A stretch of DNA of 64,000 nt from an archaeon (GTDB lineage Archaea; Thermoproteota; Nitrososphaeria; Nitrososphaerales; JACAEJ01): assembly GCA_024256285.1 (NCBI GenBank), contig JACGUG010000002.1, forward strand, positions 7,427-71,426. The letters are read 5' to 3'. The notes below the pieces were generated by a model. That model was not told where the DNA came from and made no database searches. It saw nothing but the letters and a program-made list of their open reading frames with translations. The first letter of the stretch is position 1; every line of letters begins with the position of its first letter. This document shows positions 38,831-56,596 of the stretch, in pieces. The position numbers were made by a program, and so were the translations under genes.

Positions 38831-40366
38831 TCATCTTATCGGTGGGGCATCGAACTTCTTCAACACCTCATGAATCTTCTCTATAACATCTGTTGCCATT
38901 ATATGGTATCCCCTATCCCTTACAGCGAGGTCTCCAGCAGATCCAGATATGAAGGCACCGGCACAGGCAGCTCTAAAGGGCTTTACACCCCAGGCCAATA
39001 ATGTAGCTACTATGCCTGACAGTACATCTCCCGTCCCACCAGTAGTCATCCCCGGGTTTCCAGTAAGATTTATCTTGAAATGATTGCTATCAGATATTAT
39101 ATCCTCGTGACCCTTCAAGAGTATGGTTACGCCCAATCTCTTTGCCTCTTTCTTGACATGTGTTATCCTCTCCTCTAACCTATCTGGGGGTGCTATTGTG
39201 CTGTGTGTAACGATCTCGAACTCTCCTGCATGAGGGGTGAGCACTGCTGGATAACCTTGTAAGCATTTAGGGTCCTTTGATAGAGCTTTTAGGGCATCGG
39301 CATCGATCAGCATAGGCTTATCCTTTCCCACTGTTTTCATAAAGCTCAAAATAGCGTCTTTCGTCTCTCCTTCCAATCCAAGACCTGGACCTGCTATTAT
39401 ACTCGAGCAACGCTCTGCCAAATTCTTCAACTCTGGTAGATCGTCCGATGTGAGGTAATCGCCTCCTAACCTTCTAACTATAAGGTTTGGGGAGAAGGAT
39501 CGGATTACATCAGCCACGCTCCTTGGTGCAGCTATGATTGCTATATCAGCGCCTGTACGGAGGGCTGCAAGGGCTGCCAAAGTTGGTGCCCCAGAGTACT
39601 CTTTGCTCCCCCCTACTATCAATAAACGACCAAAATCTCCTTTCTTTGAAAATTTATTCCTTGGCTTTATAGAATAACGTACATCTCCGGGTCCAGCTAC
39701 GATCTCAGCCTCTTGTGGCATCCCTATAGGAGATACGATTACGTCTCCAGTTATACTACTTTTATCTGCCAATCCGACCTTCATTTTATGCAGAGTTACA
39801 GTGATGTCTGCGATCACACATTTATCGTGAACATCGCCAGTTAAGGGGTCTAGACCAGAAGGCACATCGACAGCAACCTTAAAGCCCTTCGATGAATTGA
39901 TAATATCTATGGCCGATGAGAAAGGCTCTCTTATCTTTCCCCTGATCCCTGTTCCAAATATAGCGTCGACTATTATGTCCGCTTCCTCTATTTCACTTTT
40001 CAAGTTCATCAATGAATCGGCATCAGGTGCCAGAGCATACTGAAGGCCGATCTTCATCTTCTCTATTACTTTCCAATTCGCTGAAGCCTCATCGGTTTTT
40101 ATGTCCTCAACTCTTCCTAAAAGGATGACAGTTACCTTCGCTTTATCAGATAGATGCCTTGCACATACGAGACCGTCTCCCCCGTTATTCCCAGTCCCAG
40201 CCACGATTACAACTTTTTTGCCTGAGGTCTTCTTCAGCTTCTCCTTTACGATCTCTGCGATGCCTTTCCCCGCATTTTCCATTAAGAGAATTCTTGGCAC
40301 TCCCAGATACTCTGAATTCTCATCAGCTATTGCCATCTCTTCTGGCGTGATGGTGTTCATGATCAT
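38831..40366 (-). CDS. nnr: bifunctional NAD(P)H-hydrate repair enzyme (epimerase/ADP-dependent dehydratase)
   Basis: 511 aa. The YjeF_N half has GTGNNGGDG and the C-terminal kinase-like half has GGTGDVLSG. Confidence 0.9.
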   Translation of the reverse strand: MIMNTITPEEMAIADENSEYLGVPRILLMENAGKGIAEIVKEKLKKTSGKKVVIVAGTGNNGGDGLVCARHLSDKAKVTVILLGRVEDIKTDEASANWKVIEKMKIGLQYALAPDADSLMNLKSEIEEADIIVDAIFGTGIRGKIREPFSSAIDIINSSKGFKVAVDVPSGLDPLTGDVHDKCVIADITVTLHKMKVGLADKSSITGDVIVSPIGMPQEAEIVAGPGDVRYSIKPRNKFSKKGDFGRLLIVGGSKEYSGAPTLAALAALRTGADIAIIAAPRSVADVIRSFSPNLIVRRLGGDYLTSDDLPELKNLAERCSSIIAGPGLGLEGETKDAILSFMKTVGKDKPMLIDADALKALSKDPKCLQGYPAVLTPHAGEFEIVTHSTIAPPDRLEERITHVKKEAKRLGVTILLKGHEDIISDSNHFKINLTGNPGMTTGGTGDVLSGIVATLLAWGVKPFRAACAGAFISGSAGDLAVRDRGYHIMATDVIEKIHEVLKKFDAPPIR

Positions 40367-40398: not shown

Positions 40399-41148
40399 TT
40401 AAAGGTCTTCCACGATTACGGCAATCCTTTCGACAAGGTCTTCCAAAAGCAACTTTCCCTTCTCTGCAGAGGCTTTAGTGGGTGCGCCGATTACCCCAGA
40501 ATCGCTTACCTCCTTCATCCTCCATGCAAATGAGAACCCTTCCTCTACTGCCTCTAATGTGAGATGGGGGCGAAACTTGGGAGATTCGTCTACACATCTA
40601 TCTGTCCTTACCTTTTCGGGGCAGATGGTGAGCATCAAAGAAGTCTCAACCTCATCGGCATGTCCTACATCCCCCTTTGGCGACTCCCTTATCTTATCGA
40701 AGACCTTCCCAACCATGCTCAACAATGTAAAGGAGTATAATGAGATGTTCAATTCGCTTTTAATAGACTGAATAGCACTCTCTATAATAGCTTTATTGCC
40801 ACCATGACCGTTTATGATGAAGATCTTTTTGAAGCCATTCTGGGCCAAACTCGAGCATATATCTCTCAAAAGGGCTGTCAGGGTCAAAGGCTCCAAAGAT
40901 ATGGTTCCTGGGAAGCCCATATGCTCAACAGAGAAGCCGAAGTTTATTGGCGGGGTCAAGGCGATATTCAATCTTTCGGCAACCCTTTTGGCTACTTCAA
41001 AGGCTATGATCGTATCTGTAGAGAGGGGTAGATGTGGGCCATGTTGCTCAAGACTCCCTACTGGGATCAAGACTTTATCGGTTCTATTCCTGAGATCGTC
41101 GACTTCTTGCCAAGTTAGATCGGGAAGGTAATTCTTCAATAACTTCAC
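40399..41148 (-). CDS. arfB: creatininase-family formamide hydrolase (2-amino-5-formylamino-6-ribosylaminopyrimidinone 5'-phosphate deformylase)
   Basis: It has the creatininase pattern GSLEQHGPHLPL and HGGN..HADEVETS. It overlaps arfC by 4 nt inside the riboflavin operon. Confidence 0.7.
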   Translation of the reverse strand: MKLLKNYLPDLTWQEVDDLRNRTDKVLIPVGSLEQHGPHLPLSTDTIIAFEVAKRVAERLNIALTPPINFGFSVEHMGFPGTISLEPLTLTALLRDICSSLAQNGFKKIFIINGHGGNKAIIESAIQSIKSELNISLYSFTLLSMVGKVFDKIRESPKGDVGHADEVETSLMLTICPEKVRTDRCVDESPKFRPHLTLEAVEEGFSFAWRMKEVSDSGVIGAPTKASAEKGKLLLEDLVERIAVIVEDL

Positions 41149-41819
41149 CTTAAAGGTCTATAAGTTAAGACTACTTCATCCCCAAACCGTTTCACTTCGT
41201 AGAGTTTCACTCGAACTCCTTCATCTATCCTTGCCACCCCATCGCCTTCGACCAGAGTTACCGAATCTCTTCCCCCAATGATAAAGGGGCATATAGTGAC
41301 ATGTAACTCATCGAACAAGTTCTGGCTGACGAAACTCCAGTTGATGTTGCCTCCACCTTCTACAACTACCTTCCTTACACCCATCTCTTTAAGTTTCTTG
41401 AGCAATATCTTTAGATCAACTTTTTCTCCCCCTCCACATACTATTACCTTTGCTCCAGCCCTCTCAAGATTCTTCACTCGATCTTCTGGTGCTTTGCTGG
41501 TGGTTGCGATCAGGGTAGGAGACTTTGAGGAGATTATTCTCGATTCGACAGGTGTCCTCGCTCTGCTATCTACCACCACCCTCATGGGGTTCTTCCCTTC
41601 ACAATACCTAACTGTTAAAGATGGATCGTCGACAAGAACTGTATTTATGCCAACCATTATGGCGTCCACAGATGCTCTAAGCCCATGTACTCTTACAAGG
41701 TCTTCTTTACTCGACATCTTAGAGTCCCCTGTCTTCGTCGCAATCTTTCCATCCAGAGTCATGGCTGCATTCAGGATAACATACGGTCTATCATCATTCA
41801 CATTCTGGTAGAGACCCAT
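41145..41819 (-). CDS. arfC: 2,5-diamino-6-ribosylamino-4(3H)-pyrimidinone 5'-phosphate reductase
   Basis: It contains only the RibD C-terminal (reductase) domain: ILNAAMTLDGKIATKTGDSK and VEGGG. No deaminase domain is present. Confidence 0.8.
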   Translation of the reverse strand: MGLYQNVNDDRPYVILNAAMTLDGKIATKTGDSKMSSKEDLVRVHGLRASVDAIMVGINTVLVDDPSLTVRYCEGKNPMRVVVDSRARTPVESRIISSKSPTLIATTSKAPEDRVKNLERAGAKVIVCGGGEKVDLKILLKKLKEMGVRKVVVEGGGNINWSFVSQNLFDELHVTICPFIIGGRDSVTLVEGDGVARIDEGVRVKLYEVKRFGDEVVLTYRPLR

Positions 41820-43032
41820 AGACTATCTTTCCTCCTACCATCACGGCTTGAATATCGTCAGGTCTGACCCTATGAACTATCGAGTTGATAGGATCTTTTA
41901 CCGACCTGAGGTTTTTTGTACCCATGTTTATAAATACAACATCAGCCCTCTTCCCCTCCTCTATCGATCCAATTTCTTTATCCAATTTCAAAGCCTTTGC
42001 AGCGTTGATCGTAACCATCTTCATTATCTCCTTAGACGATATCGTTGAAGGCTCTTTCTCCAAGGCCCTTAAAATCCTTGATGTGTAGTCCATCTCACGG
42101 AATAGGTCTGCAGAGTTGAGCATAACGTTGTCGGTACCCAGAGCAACGGTGATACCACCCCTGATCATCGAGCTTATTGGGGGGAAACCTAAACCCAAGA
42201 TCGAGTTGGCTCTTGGGCAGCATACAACTGGAACCTTCGCCTTTGAGACAAGCTCTATATCTTCGTCTCTGGCTTGAGTCAGATGGACGAGAAAATTTAG
42301 ATCGATATTCTTTAAAGCACGCTCAACCTCGCTCTGATGAAAATTTCTCAGTGAAAAATTCATAGAGTATCTGTCTTCACATGCATGTATAGCGAATATC
42401 TTGCCCCTGACCAACCTTGACATCTCCTTCATAGACCGATCAGTATATTCGTTGGGACCACTTAGCCCTACCCCATCACATATCTTTAAGACCTCTTCTA
42501 CTTCACGAACCTTTTCATCTGGCATGGGAGAGTTCTTTACAACCTCTTCTTCGCTGAAATAGTAATCCGGTCTTCCAAGAATCATTGTCCTGATCTTCAC
42601 TCCTTTAAGGGCGCTCTTTAAGAGCATCACCCCTTTCTTCCCTCCTTCACGAAAATCAGCAAAGGTTGTAACGCCACACCTTAACATATCCAAGGCTGAG
42701 TCTCTCATCGATTTAAGGATCAGACTTTCAGGTACTGATTCCAGTAGCTTGTGCTTTAACCCGGTCATGGGGCGGAAAAGCTCGTTGAGAGACCTGCCTA
42801 TTCCTACATCCTTTGCAAAAGAGTCGCCTAGATGTGTATGGGCATCAATCAGACCTGGGATTGCAACCATATCTTTCCCTTTATACCTGACACATCTCGA
42901 TCGATGCTGTGGATTTCCTTCCCTAACTTCTGTGAAATGACCATCATCATCTATCCTTATGAAGGCCTTCTCCATTACGTCTAGGTTCTGACCTACTACT
43001 GCAGTTACTCCTTCGATTATAGAATCTCTCAT
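41794..43032 (-). CDS. amidohydrolase-superfamily deaminase-like protein (COG0402-type)
   Basis: 412 aa with GLIDAHTHL (HxH), FAIHACE (HxxE), VHLT and LGTDN. It shares an ATGA overlap with the arfA stop and a 26-nt overlap with arfC. Confidence 0.8.
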   Translation of the reverse strand: MRDSIIEGVTAVVGQNLDVMEKAFIRIDDDGHFTEVREGNPQHRSRCVRYKGKDMVAIPGLIDAHTHLGDSFAKDVGIGRSLNELFRPMTGLKHKLLESVPESLILKSMRDSALDMLRCGVTTFADFREGGKKGVMLLKSALKGVKIRTMILGRPDYYFSEEEVVKNSPMPDEKVREVEEVLKICDGVGLSGPNEYTDRSMKEMSRLVRGKIFAIHACEDRYSMNFSLRNFHQSEVERALKNIDLNFLVHLTQARDEDIELVSKAKVPVVCCPRANSILGLGFPPISSMIRGGITVALGTDNVMLNSADLFREMDYTSRILRALEKEPSTISSKEIMKMVTINAAKALKLDKEIGSIEEGKRADVVFINMGTKNLRSVKDPINSIVHRVRPDDIQAVMVGGKIVYGSLPECE

Positions 43033-43799
43033 AACAAAACATCAGAGAGTTTGTGAACGGGGCCTTTCGCTTTACGATCCCTGATCATGTCCAACCCTTT
43101 AGTGGCAAGCTCCATGGCTTTTCGCCCAGTTCTCGCTACACCGATACCTGCTTTTAGCATGAGATCGAAATTCTTGCTTGCCATCGAAAGAATCTTCTCA
43201 ACTTCCCTCTCCGAGACACCGTTCGCTACTGCCATGAAGTTGTCTCCGCCACAGAAGAAGGTTAGAGCCTTATGGTTCAGGAAGAGCTCACTTAACTTTA
43301 CATTTAACCTATTGATCATCAACGCTGTATCGTAAGCTGATAATTTATAGGTGAATCTGTCTGTCATATCATCTACATCTACATGGACCATCTGTACGCT
43401 ATATTCGTAGGGGCCACTCAGTCCACCCCTCATTATCTTCTTTACGTCTCTGCTTTTACTACATCTCTGTAAGGCTCTTGTAGCCATCTCCAATGCATTG
43501 TATGGTGTTTCAGCCACCCCGATGCCCATGCTTATGGTGAAGGGGTAATTCTTTGATATCTCATCCTGGATTTCTATGTGATCCTCCAAGGGAATACCGT
43601 TACTGATAGCCACCATTTCATCAAAGCGATTGTAAAATACTGCTCCCCCTCTCTCTGCAAAGGATCTCTGTAGATGGGCATGAAGCTGAGACTGAAGTAT
43701 CTGTAATCTGTACTCTCTATCGTTACCAAGCTCAAGAGTCCATGGGCCATAGTTGTCTATCCTAATCAGGGTCATCTGCACTTTGTCATTCATGGTCAA
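43029..43799 (-). CDS. arfA: GTP cyclohydrolase III
   Basis: 256 aa. MTLIRIDNYGPWT is the hallmark N-terminus of archaeal GCH III. Confidence 0.85.
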   Translation of the reverse strand: MTMNDKVQMTLIRIDNYGPWTLELGNDREYRLQILQSQLHAHLQRSFAERGGAVFYNRFDEMVAISNGIPLEDHIEIQDEISKNYPFTISMGIGVAETPYNALEMATRALQRCSKSRDVKKIMRGGLSGPYEYSVQMVHVDVDDMTDRFTYKLSAYDTALMINRLNVKLSELFLNHKALTFFCGGDNFMAVANGVSEREVEKILSMASKNFDLMLKAGIGVARTGRKAMELATKGLDMIRDRKAKGPVHKLSDVLL

Positions 43800-44254
43800 T
43801 CCACCATGGCTGGATATTGAGTAACTTCCATCTCTTCCAGCATCCTCATACGCCTCACCATCTTGACTGCCGCTTCGACAGCCCTCTTTGCATACTCGTC
43901 TATGCGCTCCATGCCTTGAATCCTCGTCATGCCCGGCCCTGAAACTCCAAGAGATACTGGCTTTCTATACTGGATCGATAGATCGGTTATCTTTCTTGTT
44001 ACATGTTGCGCTATGATCTCATCATGCCTCGTCTCACCTTCTACGATCGCCCCAAGGGTCACAACAGCACTCACATCCTTCTTCTCGAGCAAAGACTGGA
44101 TCAACAGGGGCATATCGAAGGAACCGGGTGCTTTGCAGATGTACGTGATCTGGGCTCCTAAAAATGTAGCATGCTCTTTGGCCCTCTCAAGCATAAGGTA
44201 AGAAATATCGAAGTTGAACTCAGATACGACCAGAGCCACTTGCATCTTCTCCAT
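43796..44254 (-). CDS. ribH: 6,7-dimethyl-8-ribityllumazine synthase
   Basis: 152 aa with lumazine synthase size and pattern (..VALVVSEFN.., GAIVEGETRHDE). It lies within the operon. Confidence 0.85.
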   Translation of the reverse strand: MEKMQVALVVSEFNFDISYLMLERAKEHATFLGAQITYICKAPGSFDMPLLIQSLLEKKDVSAVVTLGAIVEGETRHDEIIAQHVTRKITDLSIQYRKPVSLGVSGPGMTRIQGMERIDEYAKRAVEAAVKMVRRMRMLEEMEVTQYPAMVD

Positions 44255-44269
44255 TCATTTATTCACCTC

Positions 44270-45531
<1,262 letters not shown>

Positions 45532-45581
45532 AAAATTTGTAATAAATCATATATACGCAGAGGATTAAATGTCAAGGGGAG

Positions 45582-52242: not shown

Positions 52243-53418
52243 TTAGTCATATACCCTTAATATATCGTAAGTAGTGGACCTCTGGGCAGGAATTCTGCCT
52301 ATGTCTTGAATCAGCCTTCTGAACTCCTCTGGGTGTAAAAGTTGCCCATGAATAGCTCCAGCAGCTCTTGATATGCTCTCATTGATCAGAGTTCCACCAA
52401 AGTCGTTGGCGCCAACATTAAGGCAGAACTGTGCAAATTTCTTTCCTTCCTTGACCCAAGATACCTGTATGTTCTTGATGTCATCGTTAAGCATCAGCCT
52501 AGATGCTGCATACATCTTGACTACCTCTGCACCAGTCGCGCCTCTCCTTATGTTCTTTACTAGACCTTTCTTGTAGATCGGGGTTTCATAGTGCACAAAA
52601 CTCAGGGGGACGAATTCTGTTATGCCATGAGTCTCTTTCTGTATATCCCTTATTATGGCTATGTGCTTCGCCTTGTGTAATGAATTTTCGATATGCCCAT
52701 ACATTATAGTCGAAGTTGTTGGGATGCCTAGCCTGTGGGCTGCCTTTATCACTCTGATCCAATCTTTTGTTCTAATTCTATTGGGAGAGATCACTTCTCT
52801 GATTTCGTCGTCGAGTATCTCTGCTGCTGTGCCGGGCAGACTGCCGATACCAGCCTCCTTGAGCATCTTCAAGTAATCTTCCACAGTTGTACCCAACCTT
52901 AAAGCCCCATAAACCACCTCTTCAGGGGAGAAGGCATGGATATGGATGTCTGGCACCTCTTTCTTCACGGCTTTGCAGATATCGATGTAAATATTCCCGT
53001 CCATATTTGGTGGGAGACCGGCTTGAATACATACTTCTGTTGCTCCTAATTCCCATGCCTCCTTCGCCATCCTGACTACTTCTTCGATGGGCAAGAAGTA
53101 GCTATCTTTATCTCCATAACTCCGGCTGAAGGCACAGAACCCACATCTATTTATGCAGATGTTCGTGAAGTTGATGTTTCGGTTTACAACATAAGTGACT
53201 ACATCGCCGACTGTCGTGCGCCTAAGTTCATCGGCAACTGTAATTAAAGCGTTAAGATCGGTTCCTTTTATCTCAAAAAGCTCGACACACTCATCTACAG
53301 AAATTTCCTTGCCATCAAGGGCCTTATCAAGAATCGATGCTATAACAGGGTCGATCTTATACAGTAAGTTTTCAAGAGAGGGGCGAAGGATGTCAGAATC
53401 GTGTGCGCTCAGGTTCAA
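52243..53418 (-). CDS. cofH: FO synthase subunit CofH (radical SAM)
   Basis: It has NICINRCGFCAF and is 391 aa. It directly abuts cofG. Confidence 0.85.
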   Translation of the reverse strand: MNLSAHDSDILRPSLENLLYKIDPVIASILDKALDGKEISVDECVELFEIKGTDLNALITVADELRRTTVGDVVTYVVNRNINFTNICINRCGFCAFSRSYGDKDSYFLPIEEVVRMAKEAWELGATEVCIQAGLPPNMDGNIYIDICKAVKKEVPDIHIHAFSPEEVVYGALRLGTTVEDYLKMLKEAGIGSLPGTAAEILDDEIREVISPNRIRTKDWIRVIKAAHRLGIPTTSTIMYGHIENSLHKAKHIAIIRDIQKETHGITEFVPLSFVHYETPIYKKGLVKNIRRGATGAEVVKMYAASRLMLNDDIKNIQVSWVKEGKKFAQFCLNVGANDFGGTLINESISRAAGAIHGQLLHPEEFRRLIQDIGRIPAQRSTTYDILRVYD

Positions 53419-54651
53419 TCAAGATACCTCTCTTACATAACCTTCGTGGTCGGCAAGGGATAGTATGTGACTTTTAAGAGGCTTTGGCAAGAAATCGGCC
53501 TTGTTCAATATAAACTCGGGATAGATAGGGAGCCTAGCCCTCAATTCAAGACCCCCCTTCTCTGTTACACTTTTCAGAGCCCTTATCTCAGGCCATGGTG
53601 CTTCGGGGTTCACGAAGTCTTTTGTAACAGGGGATACGCCACCCCAGTCATTTATTCCTGCAGATAGATACATACCATATTCATCAGGGCTAAGGTTTGG
53701 AGGCACTTGTATGTTCACATCATTCCCGAAGATCAATCTCGATACAGAAATTACTCGAGAGATTTCTTTTACAGTAGGCTCTGGATGAGATGCCATAGGG
53801 GTATCTGGCTTAGCCTTGAAGTTCTGGATTATCACCTCTTGAATATGACCATATCTTTCATTCAACTTCTTTATGGCGTAGAGAGAGTCTACGATCTCTT
53901 CAAGAGTTTCTCCTATGCCTATCAACAGACCAGTGGTGAAAGGTATCTTGAGTTGCCCAGCATTCTCGATTGTAGCCAATCTCAGATCAGGCCTTTTACT
54001 TGGAGAGAACTCATGAGGTTCACCTTTACCACACAATCTATCGCTCACATTCTCCAGCATCAACCCCATGCTGGCATTTACATCCTTTAGATCAACCATC
54101 TCTCCCTTCGTCATAAACCCAGGATTAGAGTGAGGCAGAAGGCCAGTCTTCTTTATCACCATCTTACACATATCATGTAGATATTCTAACATGCTCTTAT
54201 ATCCCAGTCTCTTCAACCACCTAAGGGCTTCTGGATAGCGTCTCTCAGGCTTCTCACCTAAAGTGAAAAGGGCTTCTGTACAATGAAAACCTTTACCAGC
54301 CTCAGCGAAGGAAAGAACTTTGCTTGGATTCATTATCTCTGCATCAGGGTCTGTGGGCTCCCTTCTGAATTTACAGTAACCACATCTATTCCTGCATAGG
54401 TTCGTCAGAGGTATGAATACCTTTCTTGAATAGGTTATACGCTTTCCCTTACCATTATCTCGGATGATCCTTGCTACAGACATCAACACCTGAAGATCGT
54501 GGCCATCACACCTTATTAGATCATAAGCCTCTTCTTTTGTAATTTCCTTCCCTTCAAGGCTTTTGTATAGTACTTCTTTAATCTCAGAGTCGATTTCATC
54601 TTCAAGGTTGACAATGCCGTGAGGCTTCGTGTTCTGCTTTGGGATAGCCAA
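53419..54651 (-). CDS. cofG: FO synthase subunit CofG (radical SAM)
   Basis: It has NLCRNRCGYCKF and is 410 aa with a TTG start in the track. Confidence 0.85.
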   Translation of the reverse strand: MAIPKQNTKPHGIVNLEDEIDSEIKEVLYKSLEGKEITKEEAYDLIRCDGHDLQVLMSVARIIRDNGKGKRITYSRKVFIPLTNLCRNRCGYCKFRREPTDPDAEIMNPSKVLSFAEAGKGFHCTEALFTLGEKPERRYPEALRWLKRLGYKSMLEYLHDMCKMVIKKTGLLPHSNPGFMTKGEMVDLKDVNASMGLMLENVSDRLCGKGEPHEFSPSKRPDLRLATIENAGQLKIPFTTGLLIGIGETLEEIVDSLYAIKKLNERYGHIQEVIIQNFKAKPDTPMASHPEPTVKEISRVISVSRLIFGNDVNIQVPPNLSPDEYGMYLSAGINDWGGVSPVTKDFVNPEAPWPEIRALKSVTEKGGLELRARLPIYPEFILNKADFLPKPLKSHILSLADHEGYVREVS

Positions 54652-54801: not shown

Positions 54802-55365
54802 CTATCTGTATCCCGTCCACCTCTTGAAGAGATTATGCTCTATGCCAAGGCTATCGAGAATCTTACCAACAACGAAGTCTATTAATTGATCTATATCTTT
54901 TGGATTGTGATAAAAAGCTGGCATTGCAGGAAGTATAACTACACCTATCCTCGCCAACTTGAGCATATTTTCAAGAAAGATAGCACTGAGAGGAGTCTCC
55001 CTTGGGACGAGTATCAACTTTCTCCCTTGCTTTATGGCGACTTCTGCAGCCCTAAGGATGAGGTTATCGGAGTAACCATGGGCAATCCCTGCCAGAGTCT
55101 TGGCGCTGCATGGCACTATGACCATCCCGTCTGTAATGTATGAGCCACTTGCCAATGGTGATAGAAGATCGTCTAATTGGTAGGCATGAGTTGCCAACTT
55201 CTCTATGTCTTCCCTCTTCGATGAAAGTTCATGGGCGATGATTTCTTCAGCAGCTCCTCGGCTCACTATCACATGAGTCTCAACACCCTTATCCGAGAGA
55301 ACTTCTAAGAGGCGCTTGCCATATATTACGCCGCTTGCCCCTGTTATTCCTACAACTATTCTCAT
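54802..55365 (-). CDS. ubiX: flavin prenyltransferase UbiX
   Basis: It is 187 aa with MRIVVGITGASG and the PAMPAFY pattern. Confidence 0.9.
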   Translation of the reverse strand: MRIVVGITGASGVIYGKRLLEVLSDKGVETHVIVSRGAAEEIIAHELSSKREDIEKLATHAYQLDDLLSPLASGSYITDGMVIVPCSAKTLAGIAHGYSDNLILRAAEVAIKQGRKLILVPRETPLSAIFLENMLKLARIGVVILPAMPAFYHNPKDIDQLIDFVVGKILDSLGIEHNLFKRWTGYR

Positions 55366-56090
55366 CCGATCTCAACTTCAGGAGTTATCTTCTTCACAGA
55401 CCCATCTTTACAAGCCTTATAAATTGTATGAACTCTTTCGATGAATATGCCTGCCTCAACAACACCAGGCATATCCTTTATCTTACTCAAGAGCAGGGGA
55501 GGTTCATCTATAAGCCCAAAGTCTACATCGAGGATTACATTCCCGTTATCGGTAAAGAAAGGGTAGCCTTTTTTCAACGTTCTCAGTTCGGGCTTTCCTC
55601 CAATCTTTTCAAGCTCCTTCTGGACAAAGACGCGGGCAAAGGGCACGACTTCTATGGGCACTTTTCTGGACAGAACTTCTACGAACTTTTCTTCATCTGC
55701 AAGTATTACAACCTTCTTCGCTACCCTCATCAATACCTTTTCTCTTAAAAGAGCGCCCCCACCTCCCTTTATCATGTTGAAGTTCTTATCAACCTGATCG
55801 ACTCCATCGACGACCAAGTCGATAGAAGAGGCCAGACGGGGTTGGACGATCTCCAGTCCAGCCCTCTCTGCGAAGGTCTGTATCTGCAATGATGAGGGGA
55901 TTACTGAGACTTTGAAGTTGATCCTCGTCAGATACCTGCCTAAAGCATCGACGAACCTCGCTACAGTAGACCCGCTCCCTAAGCCTATGGTAATGTCTTC
56001 TTCTACGTTCTCAAGGGCTTCTTCAGCCATCTTCTCTAAAGTTTCTTCAGATCTTATCTTAATCACCCCCAAAATTATGAATTTCACCAA
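55362..56090 (-). CDS. rpiA: ribose-5-phosphate isomerase A
   Basis: It has GLGSGST, DGVDQVD and KGGGGAL. Confidence 0.9.
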   Translation of the reverse strand: MVKFIILGVIKIRSEETLEKMAEEALENVEEDITIGLGSGSTVARFVDALGRYLTRINFKVSVIPSSLQIQTFAERAGLEIVQPRLASSIDLVVDGVDQVDKNFNMIKGGGGALLREKVLMRVAKKVVILADEEKFVEVLSRKVPIEVVPFARVFVQKELEKIGGKPELRTLKKGYPFFTDNGNVILDVDFGLIDEPPLLLSKIKDMPGVVEAGIFIERVHTIYKACKDGSVKKITPEVEIG

Positions 56091-56596
56091 TGCTCAAGAT
56101 GTATAACTTCTTCAAGAGGCTTTCTATTGGAGACTTCACCCTTAACTTCATCTGAATAGCCTAAGGGTGTCATGGCAACTACACGTATATGTGGCGGTAT
56201 CCCAAGAGCACCCTTTTCTGCTTGCTCATCAAAATTCACTATCCAGCAAGTTTCCAGACCCTCCTCAGTTGCGCAGAGAATCATGTTCTGCAGGGCGATC
56301 GCTACATCGACTTTCCAGTACTCCTCTCCATCTTCTCTTACCCATGCTTCATTTGGGTCTGCACAGGCAACTATTATCACTGGGGCATGGATGAACCAGT
56401 CCTTAGAGTAAGTCTCTACCAGCCTTTCTTTTACCTTAGAGTCCGTTATTACGATGAAGTGCCGTGGTTGTCTGTTTGCAGCCGATGGTGCTAGACGCCC
56501 AGCCTCAAGCACATGCATGATCTTCTCCTTTTCGACTTCCTTCGACTTGTATCTACGTATGCTTCGCCTGAGTCTTATAGCTTCAGATACCTTCAA
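56084..56596 (-). CDS. nitroreductase-family flavoprotein
   Basis: It has RRSIRRY and ..APSAANRQP.. It overlaps rpiA by 7 nt. Confidence 0.8.
   Translation of the reverse strand: MKVSEAIRLRRSIRRYKSKEVEKEKIMHVLEAGRLAPSAANRQPRHFIVITDSKVKERLVETYSKDWFIHAPVIIVACADPNEAWVREDGEEYWKVDVAIALQNMILCATEEGLETCWIVNFDEQAEKGALGIPPHIRVVAMTPLGYSDEVKGEVSNRKPLEEVIHLEHW

What the first reader, a model, noticed from the sequence alone, without database searches (positions are those of the whole stretch)
41794..43032. Deaminase-signature amidohydrolase embedded in the archaeal riboflavin operon: candidate for the unassigned pyrimidine deaminase step
Seen in sequence:
- The minus-strand run ribB-ribC-ribH-arfA-[this gene]-arfC-arfB is packed with overlaps. 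There is an ATGA overlap with the arfA stop at 43029-43032 and a 26-nt overlap with arfC.
- The protein carries the metal-dependent deaminase set HxH (DAHTH), HxxE (IHACE), a later His (VHLT) and Asp (GTDN).
- The neighbouring arfC contains only the RibD reductase domain. No CMP/dCMP-type deaminase domain occurs anywhere in the operon.

Established knowledge: archaea make 5-amino-6-ribitylaminouracil via GTP cyclohydrolase III (ArfA), formamide hydrolase (ArfB) and reductase (ArfC), followed by a deamination. To my knowledge no enzyme has been experimentally assigned to that deamination.

Inference: this amidohydrolase is the missing deaminase. Its product would also feed CofG/CofH (FO synthase), which are present at 52-54.6 kb in the same window.
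Basis: partly seen in the sequence, partly recalled or inferred. Interest (0 to 1): 0.72.

Follow-up and report, generated by a model that had tools for sequence, protein, structure and literature searches.

The report
Predicted archaeal riboflavin pyrimidine deaminase
This gene is a real metal-dependent deaminase sitting inside an archaeal vitamin B2 operon and is very probably the pathway's missing deaminase, but the same family (MJ0699 / "PyrD") was proposed for this job in 2010 and 2017 and I found no report of an experimental test.

Summary
A 412-aa ORF (41794-43032, minus strand) shares an ATGA overlap with arfA and overlaps arfC by 26 nt. It carries the HxH / HxxE / His / Asp set of cog0402-type amidohydrolase deaminases. 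It lies in a packed ribB-ribC-ribH-arfA-X-arfC-creatininase operon with no CDA-fold deaminase.

The functional inference is well supported by context:
- arfA-X-arfC adjacency holds across Nitrosopumilus, Nitrososphaera, Bathyarchaeia and the window's Methylarchaceae-like lineage.
- Two other loci place X next to cofG/cofH.
- One metagenomic protein fuses a creatininase domain to an X-like domain.
- An RbkR-type operator motif precedes the operon.

X is not a DadD, MtaD or guanine deaminase. It passes only the NCBIfam model NF005552 (PRK07213), and it replaces the residues those enzymes conserve after the HxH and in the PHAPY segment.

The idea is not new. X is 37% identical to M. jannaschii MJ0699. 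That family was proposed as the archaeal pyrimidine deaminase "PyrD" (Osterman 2010; Rodionova 2017; HVO_2483 in Pfeiffer 2021), and some GenBank entries already read "Pyrimidine deaminase archaeal predicted". I found no biochemical test. Verdict: a correct rediscovery of a known, still unproven prediction, of modest interest.

The parts
41794..43032 (-). X: 412-aa amidohydrolase-superfamily deaminase of the MJ0699 / NF005552 (PRK07213) family. It is the predicted 2,5-diamino-6-ribitylamino-4(3H)-pyrimidinone 5'-phosphate deaminase.
   Evidence: ORF. Pfam Amidohydro_1, 2e-44. NF005552, 356 bits against a cut-off of 294. 37% identity to MJ0699, E 3e-67. AF2 model with pLDDT 92.6, and Foldseek TM 0.82-0.86 to cog0402 deaminases.
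43029..43799 (-). arfA, GTP cyclohydrolase III. Its stop codon overlaps the X start codon (ATGA).
   Evidence: PF05165, 1.9e-74. Overlap read.
41145..41819 (-). arfC, the archaeal pyrimidine nucleotide reductase. It has a RibD_C domain only and no deaminase domain. It overlaps the 3' end of X by 26 nt.
   Evidence: PF01872, 1e-59. TIGR01508, 250 bits against a cut-off of 186. Overlap read.
40399..41148 (-). Creatininase-family hydrolase, the ArfB-like candidate formamide hydrolase. It overlaps arfC by 4 nt.
   Evidence: PF02633, 5.6e-77, but NF033501 (ArfB) only 35 bits against a cut-off of 180. It holds the same operon position in L001, L084 and L085.
43796..44254 (-). ribH, lumazine synthase.
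   Evidence: TIGR00114, 138 bits.
44270..44740 (-). ribC, archaeal-type riboflavin synthase.
   Evidence: TIGR01506, 222 bits.
44737..45531 (-). ribB, DHBP synthase. The real start is probably downstream of the longest-ORF GTG.
   Evidence: TIGR00506, 233 bits. The Pfam domain starts at residue 36. An operator-like site overlaps the called start.
45525..45542 (.). TTAC-N10-GTAA palindrome at the head of the operon, a candidate RbkR operator.
   Evidence: 5 matches in the window against 0.6 expected; this is the only one in a promoter position. The same motif lies 35-75 nt upstream of ribB in L005-L009 and L085. The consensus is taken from PMC5397151.
52243..54651 (-). cofH (52243-53418) and cofG (53419-54651), FO synthase. 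It consumes the dephosphorylated product of the deaminase step.
   Evidence: Radical_SAM plus CofH_C, and Radical_SAM. In L083 and L087 homologues of these genes lie next to X homologues.

Best explanation
X is the archaeal counterpart of the RibD / Rib2 deaminase, built on a different fold. It is a mononuclear-metal (beta/alpha)8 amidohydrolase of the cog0402 deaminase group.

Proposed mechanism (inferred): a metal held by H65, H67, H216 and D301 activates water, with E219 and H250 acting as proton shuttles. The enzyme would hydrolyse the 2-amino group of 2,5-diamino-6-ribitylamino-4(3H)-pyrimidinone 5'-phosphate, the product of ArfA, the ArfB-like hydrolase and ArfC. The product would be 5-amino-6-ribitylamino-2,4(1H,3H)-pyrimidinedione 5'-phosphate plus ammonia. 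After dephosphorylation, that product feeds lumazine synthase (RibH) and FO synthase (CofG/CofH).

X appears to be translationally coupled to arfA and arfC, and the operon is probably under RbkR control.

Shown here: family membership, catalytic residues, fold, gene context and its conservation. Inferred: the substrate, the order of reduction before deamination (taken from the M. jannaschii literature), the metal, and the regulation.
For: 1. Catalytic set and fold. The HxH, HxxE, His and Asp residues are invariant. The AF2 model has pLDDT 92.6. Its best structural matches are cog0402 deaminases and dechlorinases, including guanine and isocytosine deaminases, which remove the same 2-amino group from an isocytosine ring.
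2. Distinct orthologous group. The window protein passes NF005552, as do ten relatives from Nitrososphaeria-like lineages, Bathyarchaeia, Methanobacterium, Methanocellales, Thermoplasmatota, Hydrothermarchaeota and Haloferax and two Methanocaldococcus members including MJ0699. None passes any other model's cut-off.
3. Conserved synteny.
   - arfC is adjacent in 10 of 10 Nitrososphaeria/Bathyarchaeota loci, and arfA in 9 of 9 loci with upstream sequence, at only 38-43% protein identity.
   - The full ribB-ribH-arfA-X-arfC-creatininase-ribE order occurs in L084 and L085.
4. Links to the only shared intermediate of flavin and deazaflavin synthesis: X-arfC-cofG-cofH in L083 and X-cofG-cofH in L087.
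5. A creatininase::X-like fusion protein, P0329, on a 104-kb contig.
6. The operon has no CDA-fold deaminase, and arfC is reductase-only.
7. Residues specific to the family and absent from 63 bacterial cog0402 relatives include four basic ones (K74, K93, R274, R388). This is compatible with a phosphorylated polyol substrate.
8. An RbkR-type operator motif sits at the operon head, here and in relatives.
9. An independent published prediction exists for the same family (PMC5397151, PMC8305020).
Against: - I found no biochemical or genetic test of any family member.
- In Euryarchaeota the gene is not next to riboflavin genes. This holds for all 9 such loci examined: M. jannaschii L088, Methanobacterium L081, Methanocellales L010, Thermoplasmatota L082, Hydrothermarchaeota L086 and the haloarchaeal loci L012 and L014-L016. 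The context argument therefore rests on the Nitrososphaeria/Bathyarchaeia side of the family.
- The closest solved structures are adenosine/MTA-type deaminases and triazine hydrolases at 16-22% identity, so the substrate cannot be read from homology.
- I had no model coordinates, so I could not confirm that the family-specific basic residues line the pocket.
- Genome-wide co-occurrence with prototrophy was not recomputed here. It is taken from the literature.
Confidence: 0.75

Rival explanations
1. X works in the same pathway but at a different step or on a different form of the intermediate. It could deaminate the ribosyl compound before reduction (the bacterial order), act on the dephosphorylated compound, or serve as the formamide hydrolase while the creatininase-like protein does something else.
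For: The context evidence ties X to the pathway, not to one particular step. The neighbouring creatininase-family protein matches the ArfB model only weakly (35 bits against 180). The gene order arfA-X-arfC places X between the cyclohydrolase and the reductase.
Against: The HxxE motif and the whole cog0402 catalytic set belong to enzymes that displace an exocyclic group from an amidine carbon, not to amide hydrolases. The creatininase family is the family of the characterised ArfB, and it is conserved in the operon and even fused to an X-like domain. Published work on M. jannaschii places reduction before deamination (cited in PMC5397151).
Confidence: 0.1
2. X is a purine-nucleoside deaminase of the DadD/MtaD kind. 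It would clear 5'-deoxyadenosine, MTA or SAH, for example the 5'-deoxyadenosine produced by the radical-SAM enzymes CofG/CofH, and its place in riboflavin operons would be secondary.
For: The best sequence and structure matches in the PDB are MTA/SAH/adenosine deaminases (3lnp, 4dyk/4gbd, 4f0r). Two loci place X beside the radical-SAM genes cofG/cofH.
Against: Scores fall far below the DadD and MtaD cut-offs (118 against 522; 64 against 779). The W-P-x-E and PHAPY-His positions conserved in those enzymes are replaced in all 35 family members examined. From my own knowledge, M. jannaschii has a separate characterised DadD (MJ1541), distinct from MJ0699; PMC10978960 describes the enzyme but gives no locus tag. 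Most linkage is to arfA/arfC, which are not radical-SAM enzymes.
Confidence: 0.07
3. X deaminates an unrelated base or pterin (guanine, isocytosine/cytosine, a pterin or 8-oxoguanine), or hydrolyses creatinine-pathway intermediates as assumed in some Thaumarchaeota genome papers. On this view its linkage to riboflavin genes reflects operon history rather than function.
For: Sources name the family 'cytosine deaminase' or 'cytosine/adenosine deaminase-related hydrolase'. PMC7848895 reads COG0402 plus creatininase in Thaumarchaeota as creatinine catabolism. The fold is similar to guanine and isocytosine deaminases.
Against: All those NCBIfam models score far below their cut-offs. Adjacency to arfA/arfC is retained at about 40% protein identity across classes, and independent adjacency to cofG/cofH is hard to explain without a shared pathway. 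The 'creatininase' partner belongs to the ArfB family.
Confidence: 0.05

Closest known systems
[quoted passage not shown]
   Same: It is the same orthologous group. X is 37% identical to MJ0699 (E 3e-67). X, MJ0699 and the Haloferax member all pass NF005552. The predicted role and the line of argument (clustering with riboflavin genes) are the same (PMC5397151).
   Different: Nothing essential differs. X is about 30 residues longer than the methanococcal and methanobacterial proteins and about 75 longer than the haloarchaeal one. It comes from a Methylarchaceae-like lineage (90% identical to a protein of HK01M) that, as far as I know, the published reconstructions did not cover. The function of the family is still untested.
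RibD N-terminal deaminase domain (bacteria), Rib2 (yeast), PYRD (plants)
   Same: They carry out the same pathway step: hydrolytic removal of the 2-amino group of the diaminopyrimidine intermediate by a metal-activated water. Yeast Rib2 also acts after reduction, as expected here.
   Different: The fold is unrelated. Those enzymes have a cytidine-deaminase fold with an H/C-A-E ... PCxxC zinc site, whereas X is a TIM-barrel amidohydrolase. X has no sequence similarity to them and no such motif occurs anywhere in the window. X would be a non-orthologous replacement.
Tm0936 / MtaD / DadD and Pseudomonas/Chromobacterium MTA-adenosine deaminases (PDB 1p1m, 4f0r, 4dyk, 4gbd, 3lnp)
   Same: They share the superfamily subgroup, fold (TM 0.82-0.85) and catalytic HxH / HxxE / His / Asp residues.
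   Different: Identity is only 18-22%. X fails their curated cut-offs. The W-P-x-E segment and the PHAPY histidine conserved in those proteins are replaced by family-specific residues ([H/R]-P-x-x-G-L-K, S191), and 'GTDGA' becomes 'GTDNVM'.
Guanine deaminase, isocytosine deaminase Vcz, 8-oxoguanine deaminase (cog0402)
   Same: They share the fold and chemistry on the same substructure, the 2-amino group of a 2-amino-4-oxopyrimidine ring (Foldseek TM 0.79-0.85).
   Different: Identity is 16-20% and scores are far below the family cut-offs. Their substrates are free bases, whereas the predicted substrate here carries a phosphoribityl chain.

Membership tests
NF005552 / PRK07213 (MJ0699-type, 'pyrimidine deaminase, archaeal, predicted') | Whole-protein score above the curated NCBIfam equivalog cut-off (294 bits), with no other model passed | tested here: met
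   356.2 bits. The next best model scores 142 against a cut-off of 540. MJ0699 itself scores 589.
NF005552 / PRK07213 (MJ0699-type, 'pyrimidine deaminase, archaeal, predicted') | Full-length homology to the named founder MJ0699 (Q58110) | tested here: met
   37% identity over residues 42-394, E 3e-67. Its position, 624.7-625.8 kb of L77117.1, lies within a 13-kb stretch that also encodes fibrillarin, Nop5 and a DNA primase large subunit.
NF005552 / PRK07213 (MJ0699-type, 'pyrimidine deaminase, archaeal, predicted') | Family-specific invariant residues absent from other cog0402 proteins: D70, K74, K93, F127, S191, R274, P284, N302-V303-M304, R388 | tested here: met
   All are present in X. They are at least 91% conserved in 35 family members and occur in at most 8% of 63 bacterial relatives. 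This residue set is my own derivation, not a published definition.
NF005552 / PRK07213 (MJ0699-type, 'pyrimidine deaminase, archaeal, predicted') | Chromosomal clustering with riboflavin biosynthesis genes, the basis of the published prediction | tested here: met
   In the window and in L001-L009, L013 and L083-L085. It is not met in the nine euryarchaeal loci examined.
NF005552 / PRK07213 (MJ0699-type, 'pyrimidine deaminase, archaeal, predicted') | Deaminase activity on 2,5-diamino-6-ribitylamino-4(3H)-pyrimidinone 5'-phosphate | not testable with these tools
   I found no experimental report.
Amidohydrolase superfamily, cog0402-type mononuclear deaminases | HxH after strand 1, HxxE at strand 5, His at strand 6, Asp at strand 8 | tested here: met
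   H65/H67, H216/E219, H250 and D301 are invariant in the family and conserved in 92-100% of the outgroup.
Amidohydrolase superfamily, cog0402-type mononuclear deaminases | (beta/alpha)8 barrel with an N/C-terminal beta-sandwich, similar to solved members | tested here: met
   AF2 pLDDT 92.6, pTM 0.93. Foldseek E 6e-32, TM 0.85 to 4gbd, plus AtzA, TrzN, guanine deaminase and Tm0936.
DadD / MtaD (5'-deoxyadenosine, MTA, SAH deaminases) | Score above the curated cut-offs of NF005557 (522) or NF012037 (779) | tested here: not met
   118 and 63.6 bits.
DadD / MtaD (5'-deoxyadenosine, MTA, SAH deaminases) | Conserved W-P-x-E segment after the HxH and a His in the 'PHAPY' segment. That these residues contact the ribose and adenine in Tm0936 is from my own knowledge. 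| tested here: not met
   X has R87-P88-M-T-G-L-K93 and S191 at the aligned positions. The outgroup has His at the S191 column in 76% of sequences and the family in none.
RibD-type deaminase domain (CMP/dCMP deaminase fold, PF00383) | H/C-A-E and PCxxC zinc-binding motifs; a Pfam dCMP_cyt_deam hit | tested here: not met
   There is no such Pfam hit in X or in any operon protein, and no such motif in any ORF of the window. X may work like RibD's deaminase, but it is not a member.
Guanine deaminase (TIGR02967) | Score above the curated cut-off (375 bits) | tested here: not met
   73 bits, covering the C-terminal third only.

The most novel reading that the evidence does not exclude
A TIM-barrel amidohydrolase, not a cytidine-deaminase-fold enzyme, carries out the pyrimidine deamination of riboflavin and F420 biosynthesis across archaea: Nitrososphaeria, Bathyarchaeia, methanogens, haloarchaea, Thermoplasmatota and Asgard lineages. 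It would act on the reduced phosphoribityl intermediate and directly supply both lumazine synthase and FO synthase. Proving this with this protein or MJ0699 would close the last enzyme gap of the archaeal pathway apart from the phosphatase. It would also add a phosphorylated ribityl-pyrimidine to the substrate range of cog0402 deaminases. The idea is already published as a prediction.
Probability: 0.75. Interest if true: 0.5.

Novelty: already known. Interest (0 to 1): 0.3.

Why it matters
- Open step. The deaminase is, apart from the phosphatase, the remaining step of archaeal riboflavin and F420-precursor synthesis without an experimentally assigned enzyme. The candidate is compact, models with high confidence and is easy to test. 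A positive assay would be a textbook case of non-orthologous displacement: a TIM-barrel amidohydrolase replacing a CDA-fold deaminase.
- Annotation. Most databases still call these proteins 'amidohydrolase', 'chlorohydrolase' or 'cytosine deaminase'. At least one Thaumarchaeota study counted this family together with the ArfB-like 'creatininase' as creatinine catabolism (PMC7848895).
- Discovery value. As a discovery the finding adds little, because the prediction has been in the SEED subsystem and in the literature since 2010 and 2017.

Tried and rejected
- Direct literature look-up of MJ0699 and HVO_2483 gave only one paper, with no family name. PMC3262898 is not held. The Rodionova supplements are not held.
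- I first inferred HVO_2483 = X homologue by gene order in Haloferax marinum: X, Usp, BirA, PccA, then Asd, with asd being HVO_2487. I then confirmed the family link directly by finding MJ0699 itself.
- A homologue search with the Methanocellales protein did not reach Methanococcales.
The remaining 64 were distant bacterial cog0402 proteins, which I used as the outgroup.
- The hypothesis that X is a DadD/MtaD paralogue was rejected on model scores and residue replacements.
- The hypothesis that a CDA-fold deaminase hides in the window was rejected.
- I looked for domain fusions among long family representatives. Only P0329 is a real fusion. The other seven long proteins scanned carry no domain other than amidohydrolase.
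- The first MAFFT run timed out and was repeated with fast settings.
- A search for 'ArfD' as a possible gene name returned only plant ARF papers.
Full report
**1. What is in the sequence**

The ORF at 41794-43032 on the minus strand is real: it has an ATG start and encodes 412 aa. I call it X.

- Its start codon and the stop of the upstream GTP cyclohydrolase III gene form ATGA at 43032-43029.
- Its stop (41796-41794) lies 26 nt inside the longest ORF of the downstream reductase gene, whose ATG is at 41819.

Seven genes are packed on this strand, with 4-nt overlaps or gaps of at most 15 nt:

| Gene | Coordinates | Evidence |
|---|---|---|
| ribB | 44737-45531 | |
| archaeal ribC | 44270-44740 | |
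| ribH | 43796-44254 | |
| arfA | 43029-43799 | |
| X | 41794-43032 | |
| arfC | 41145-41819 | RibD_C only; TIGR01508, 250 bits |
| creatininase-family gene | 40399-41148 | |

A further gene, an NAD(P)HX repair gene, follows after 32 nt.

X carries DAHTH (63-67), IHACE (215-219), VHLT (249-252) and GTDN (299-302). The six catalytic residues within these motifs are invariant in 24 homologues.

No cytidine-deaminase-type zinc motif exists in any ORF of the window, and X has no paralogue there. cofH and cofG lie at 52243-54651. The one reservation is that the 'arfB' gene matches the curated ArfB model only weakly (35 bits against a cut-off of 180).

**2. What kind of protein it is**

Pfam places X in Amidohydro_1 (2e-44).

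Among NCBIfam models it passes only NF005552 (PRK07213, 'chlorohydrolase', an equivalog model), with 356 bits against a cut-off of 294. Its scores on other models are far below their cut-offs:

| Model | Score (bits) | Cut-off (bits) |
|---|---|---|
| DadD | 118 | 522 |
| MTA/SAH deaminase | 64 | 779 |
| Guanine deaminase | 73 | 375 |
| 8-oxoguanine deaminase | 102 | 532 |

An AlphaFold2 model built from a 24-sequence alignment is confident (pLDDT 92.6, pTM 0.93). It superposes on cog0402 enzymes at TM 0.79-0.87 but only 16-22% identity. These include Pseudomonas and Chromobacterium MTA/adenosine deaminases, AtzA, TrzN, isocytosine deaminase Vcz, guanine deaminase and Tm0936.

Profile alignments to the solved MTA/adenosine deaminases show where the family departs:
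- Their 'H.H.AMSL.RGLADD..L..WL....WP.EG' segment is replaced by 'HTH.GDS.AKD.GIG..L.EL..P..GLK..LL'.
- 'TTF.DMY' becomes 'TTFADFREGG'.
- 'G.GPHAPYT' becomes 'GLGLSGPNEYT'.
- 'GTDGAASNN' becomes 'GTDNVMLNS'.

I also compared 35 family members with 63 bacterial cog0402 relatives recovered in the genome scan.
- The catalytic H65, H67, H216, E219, H250 and D301 are shared by both sets.
- D70, K74, K93, F127, S191, R274, P284, N302, V303, M304 and R388 are at least 91% conserved in the family and present in at most 8% of the outgroup.
- The outgroup has His where the family has S191.

X is therefore a deaminase-type amidohydrolase with an intact catalytic centre and a substrate pocket of its own.

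**3. Context elsewhere**

The window's organism is close to 'Candidatus Methylarchaceae archaeon HK01M' (90% identity; an identical protein is deposited from an unclassified archaeal MAG).

tblastn with the window's own riboflavin proteins gave these results:
- The ten loci from Bathyarchaeota, Nitrososphaerales, Nitrososphaera and Nitrosopumilus are only 38-43% identical to X. All ten have arfC immediately downstream.
- All nine of these with upstream sequence have arfA immediately upstream, usually as ribB-ribH-arfA-X-arfC.

Look-ups of further members added these loci:
- ribB-ribH-arfA-X-arfC-creatininase-ribE in L084 and L085.
- X-arfC-cofG-cofH in a Bathyarchaeia genome, L083.
- X-cofG-cofH in L087.

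The only metabolite common to riboflavin and FO synthesis downstream of ArfC is 5-amino-6-ribitylaminouracil. This is what the missing deaminase (plus a phosphatase) would deliver.

One representative, P0329, lies inside a 104-kb metagenomic contig. It is a fusion of a creatininase-family domain with a divergent X-like domain: 31% identity to X, with the HxH, DFREGG, HxxE and GTDN motifs retained and 232 bits on NF005552.

In Euryarchaeota the gene is present but not linked to riboflavin genes. I examined nine such loci:
- M. jannaschii
- Methanobacterium
- Methanocellales
- Thermoplasmatota
- Hydrothermarchaeota
- four haloarchaeal loci, L012 and L014-L016 (L012 also)

All tested members still pass NF005552 and nothing else. 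Cluster look-ups also show members in Asgard bins (Jordarchaeales, Njordarchaeia). With the Methanobacterium protein as query, 239 clusters at 50% identity match at E <= 1e-30.

**4. Regulation (noticed while checking)**

Rodionova et al. give TTAC-N10-GTAA as the RbkR operator consensus for Thaumarchaeota and Thermoplasmata (PMC5397151).
- The window has this motif at 45525-45542, directly after a TATATAT box and overlapping the longest-ORF start of ribB.
- The same motif, often in tandem, lies 35-75 nt upstream of ribB in five Nitrososphaeria loci and in L085.
- The four other matches in the window are inside unrelated genes.

This fits an RbkR-controlled operon. It also suggests that ribB starts further downstream than the longest ORF.

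**5. Most likely function**

X is most likely the archaeal deaminase for 2,5-diamino-6-ribitylamino-4(3H)-pyrimidinone 5'-phosphate, working by the standard cog0402 mechanism.

The chemistry is plausible. Guanine, isocytosine, 8-oxoguanine and pterin deaminases of the same subgroup remove the same 2-amino group from a 2-amino-4-oxopyrimidine ring. The four family-specific basic residues could hold the phosphoribityl tail, but I could not test this without model coordinates.

I put this explanation at 0.75. The rivals are:
- A different step, or a different form of the substrate, in the same pathway (0.10).
- A DadD/MtaD-like nucleoside deaminase serving the radical-SAM enzymes CofG/CofH (0.07). 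Model scores, residue replacements and the predominance of arfA/arfC linkage argue against this. So does, from my own knowledge, the existence of a separate characterised DadD in M. jannaschii.
- An unrelated base or pterin deaminase, or a creatinine-pathway enzyme (0.05).

**6. Comparison with what is known, and novelty**

The literature says otherwise.
- Rodionova et al. [quoted passage not shown] They cite Osterman, Overbeek and Rodionov 2010, and they list PyrD in RbkR regulons of 15 genomes.
- Pfeiffer and Dyall-Smith 2021 name HVO_2483 (34% identical to MJ0699) as that candidate and call for experimental confirmation.

I verified that this is the same family.
- MJ0699 (Q58110, deposited as 'atrazine chlorohydrolase isolog') was recovered as P0489.
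- It is 37% identical to X (E 3e-67) and scores 589 bits on NF005552.
- The Haloferax marinum homologue is 35% identical to MJ0699. It sits four genes from asd, and asd is HVO_2487 in H. volcanii.
- Methanocaldococcus lauensis orthologues are deposited under the product name 'Pyrimidine deaminase archaeal predicted'. This SEED role also appears in metagenome papers.

I found no biochemical or genetic test in the searchable literature. A 2026 review of the pathway names no archaeal deaminase.

The finding is thus a correct, independent rediscovery of a published but unproven prediction.

**7. Verdict**

| Question | Verdict |
|---|---|
| Observation | Confirmed |
| Novelty | Already known as a prediction; the gene is an ordinary orthologue |
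| Interest | 0.3 |

The open question is real and directly testable with this protein, but specialists already hold this hypothesis.

Noticed in passing
window 45525-45542 (and L005 7958/7976, L006 8120, L007 7999, L008 8122, L009 8121, L085 3967): A TTAC-N10-GTAA palindrome, the published RbkR operator consensus for Thaumarchaeota and Thermoplasmata, sits at the head of the riboflavin operon. It follows a TATATAT box and overlaps the longest-ORF start of ribB, so the real ribB start is probably further downstream (the Pfam domain starts at residue 36). The same motif, often in tandem, precedes ribB in related loci.
   Followed up: partly
window 2812, 20759, 30051, 35535: Four more exact TTAC-N10-GTAA matches bring the window total to 5 against 0.6 expected by shuffling. 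All four lie inside coding regions (CdhD, an ORF with no Pfam hit, EF-2, a family-4 glycosyltransferase). I have no explanation for the excess.
   Followed up: partly
window 40399-41148; L084 7903-8640; L085 7882-8625; L089 5001-6629 (P0329): The creatininase-family gene at the end of the operon matches the curated ArfB model only weakly (35 bits against 180), yet it keeps this operon position in relatives. In one metagenomic protein it is fused to an X-like domain. A Thaumarchaeota genome paper (PMC7848895) interprets this family plus COG0402 'cytosine deaminase' as creatinine catabolism, which looks like a misreading of riboflavin genes.
   Followed up: partly
L083 6001-10288; L087 1330-4926: In a Bathyarchaeia genome and in a second contig, the X homologue lies directly next to cofG/cofH (with arfC between them in L083). 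This links X to F420 precursor synthesis as well as to riboflavin.
   Followed up: yes
L084 8654-9280; L085 8630-9301 versus window 44270-44740: Relatives with the same operon end it with a bacterial-type riboflavin synthase (Lum_binding, RibE). The window instead has the archaeal pentameric type (RibC) between ribB and ribH. This is a non-orthologous swap within one operon framework.
   Followed up: no
window 54802-56596: Directly downstream of cofG/cofH, with overlapping starts and stops, lie a PF02441 flavoprotein (UbiX / PPC-decarboxylase type), ribose-5-phosphate isomerase A and a nitroreductase-family protein. They may form a cofactor-related cluster with FO synthase.
   Followed up: no
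window 38831-40366: A bifunctional NAD(P)HX epimerase/dehydratase (YjeF_N plus Carb_kinase) follows the riboflavin operon after a 32-nt gap on the same strand and may be co-transcribed with it.
   Followed up: no
L085 (P0085) and L087 (P0212): The deposited names assign these proteins to bacteria (Methylomirabilota; [Eubacterium] cellulosolvens). Their contigs nevertheless carry archaeal-type genes: GTP cyclohydrolase III in L085, and an NF005552-family gene with cofG/cofH in L087. The contigs are probably mis-binned.
   Followed up: no
L010 4723-8501; L082 1647-8170: In Methanocellales and a Thermoplasmatota MAG, the X homologue (the two are 50% identical to each other) is not near riboflavin genes. 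In both it lies near sua5 and purC. The meaning of this recurring neighbourhood is unknown.
   Followed up: no
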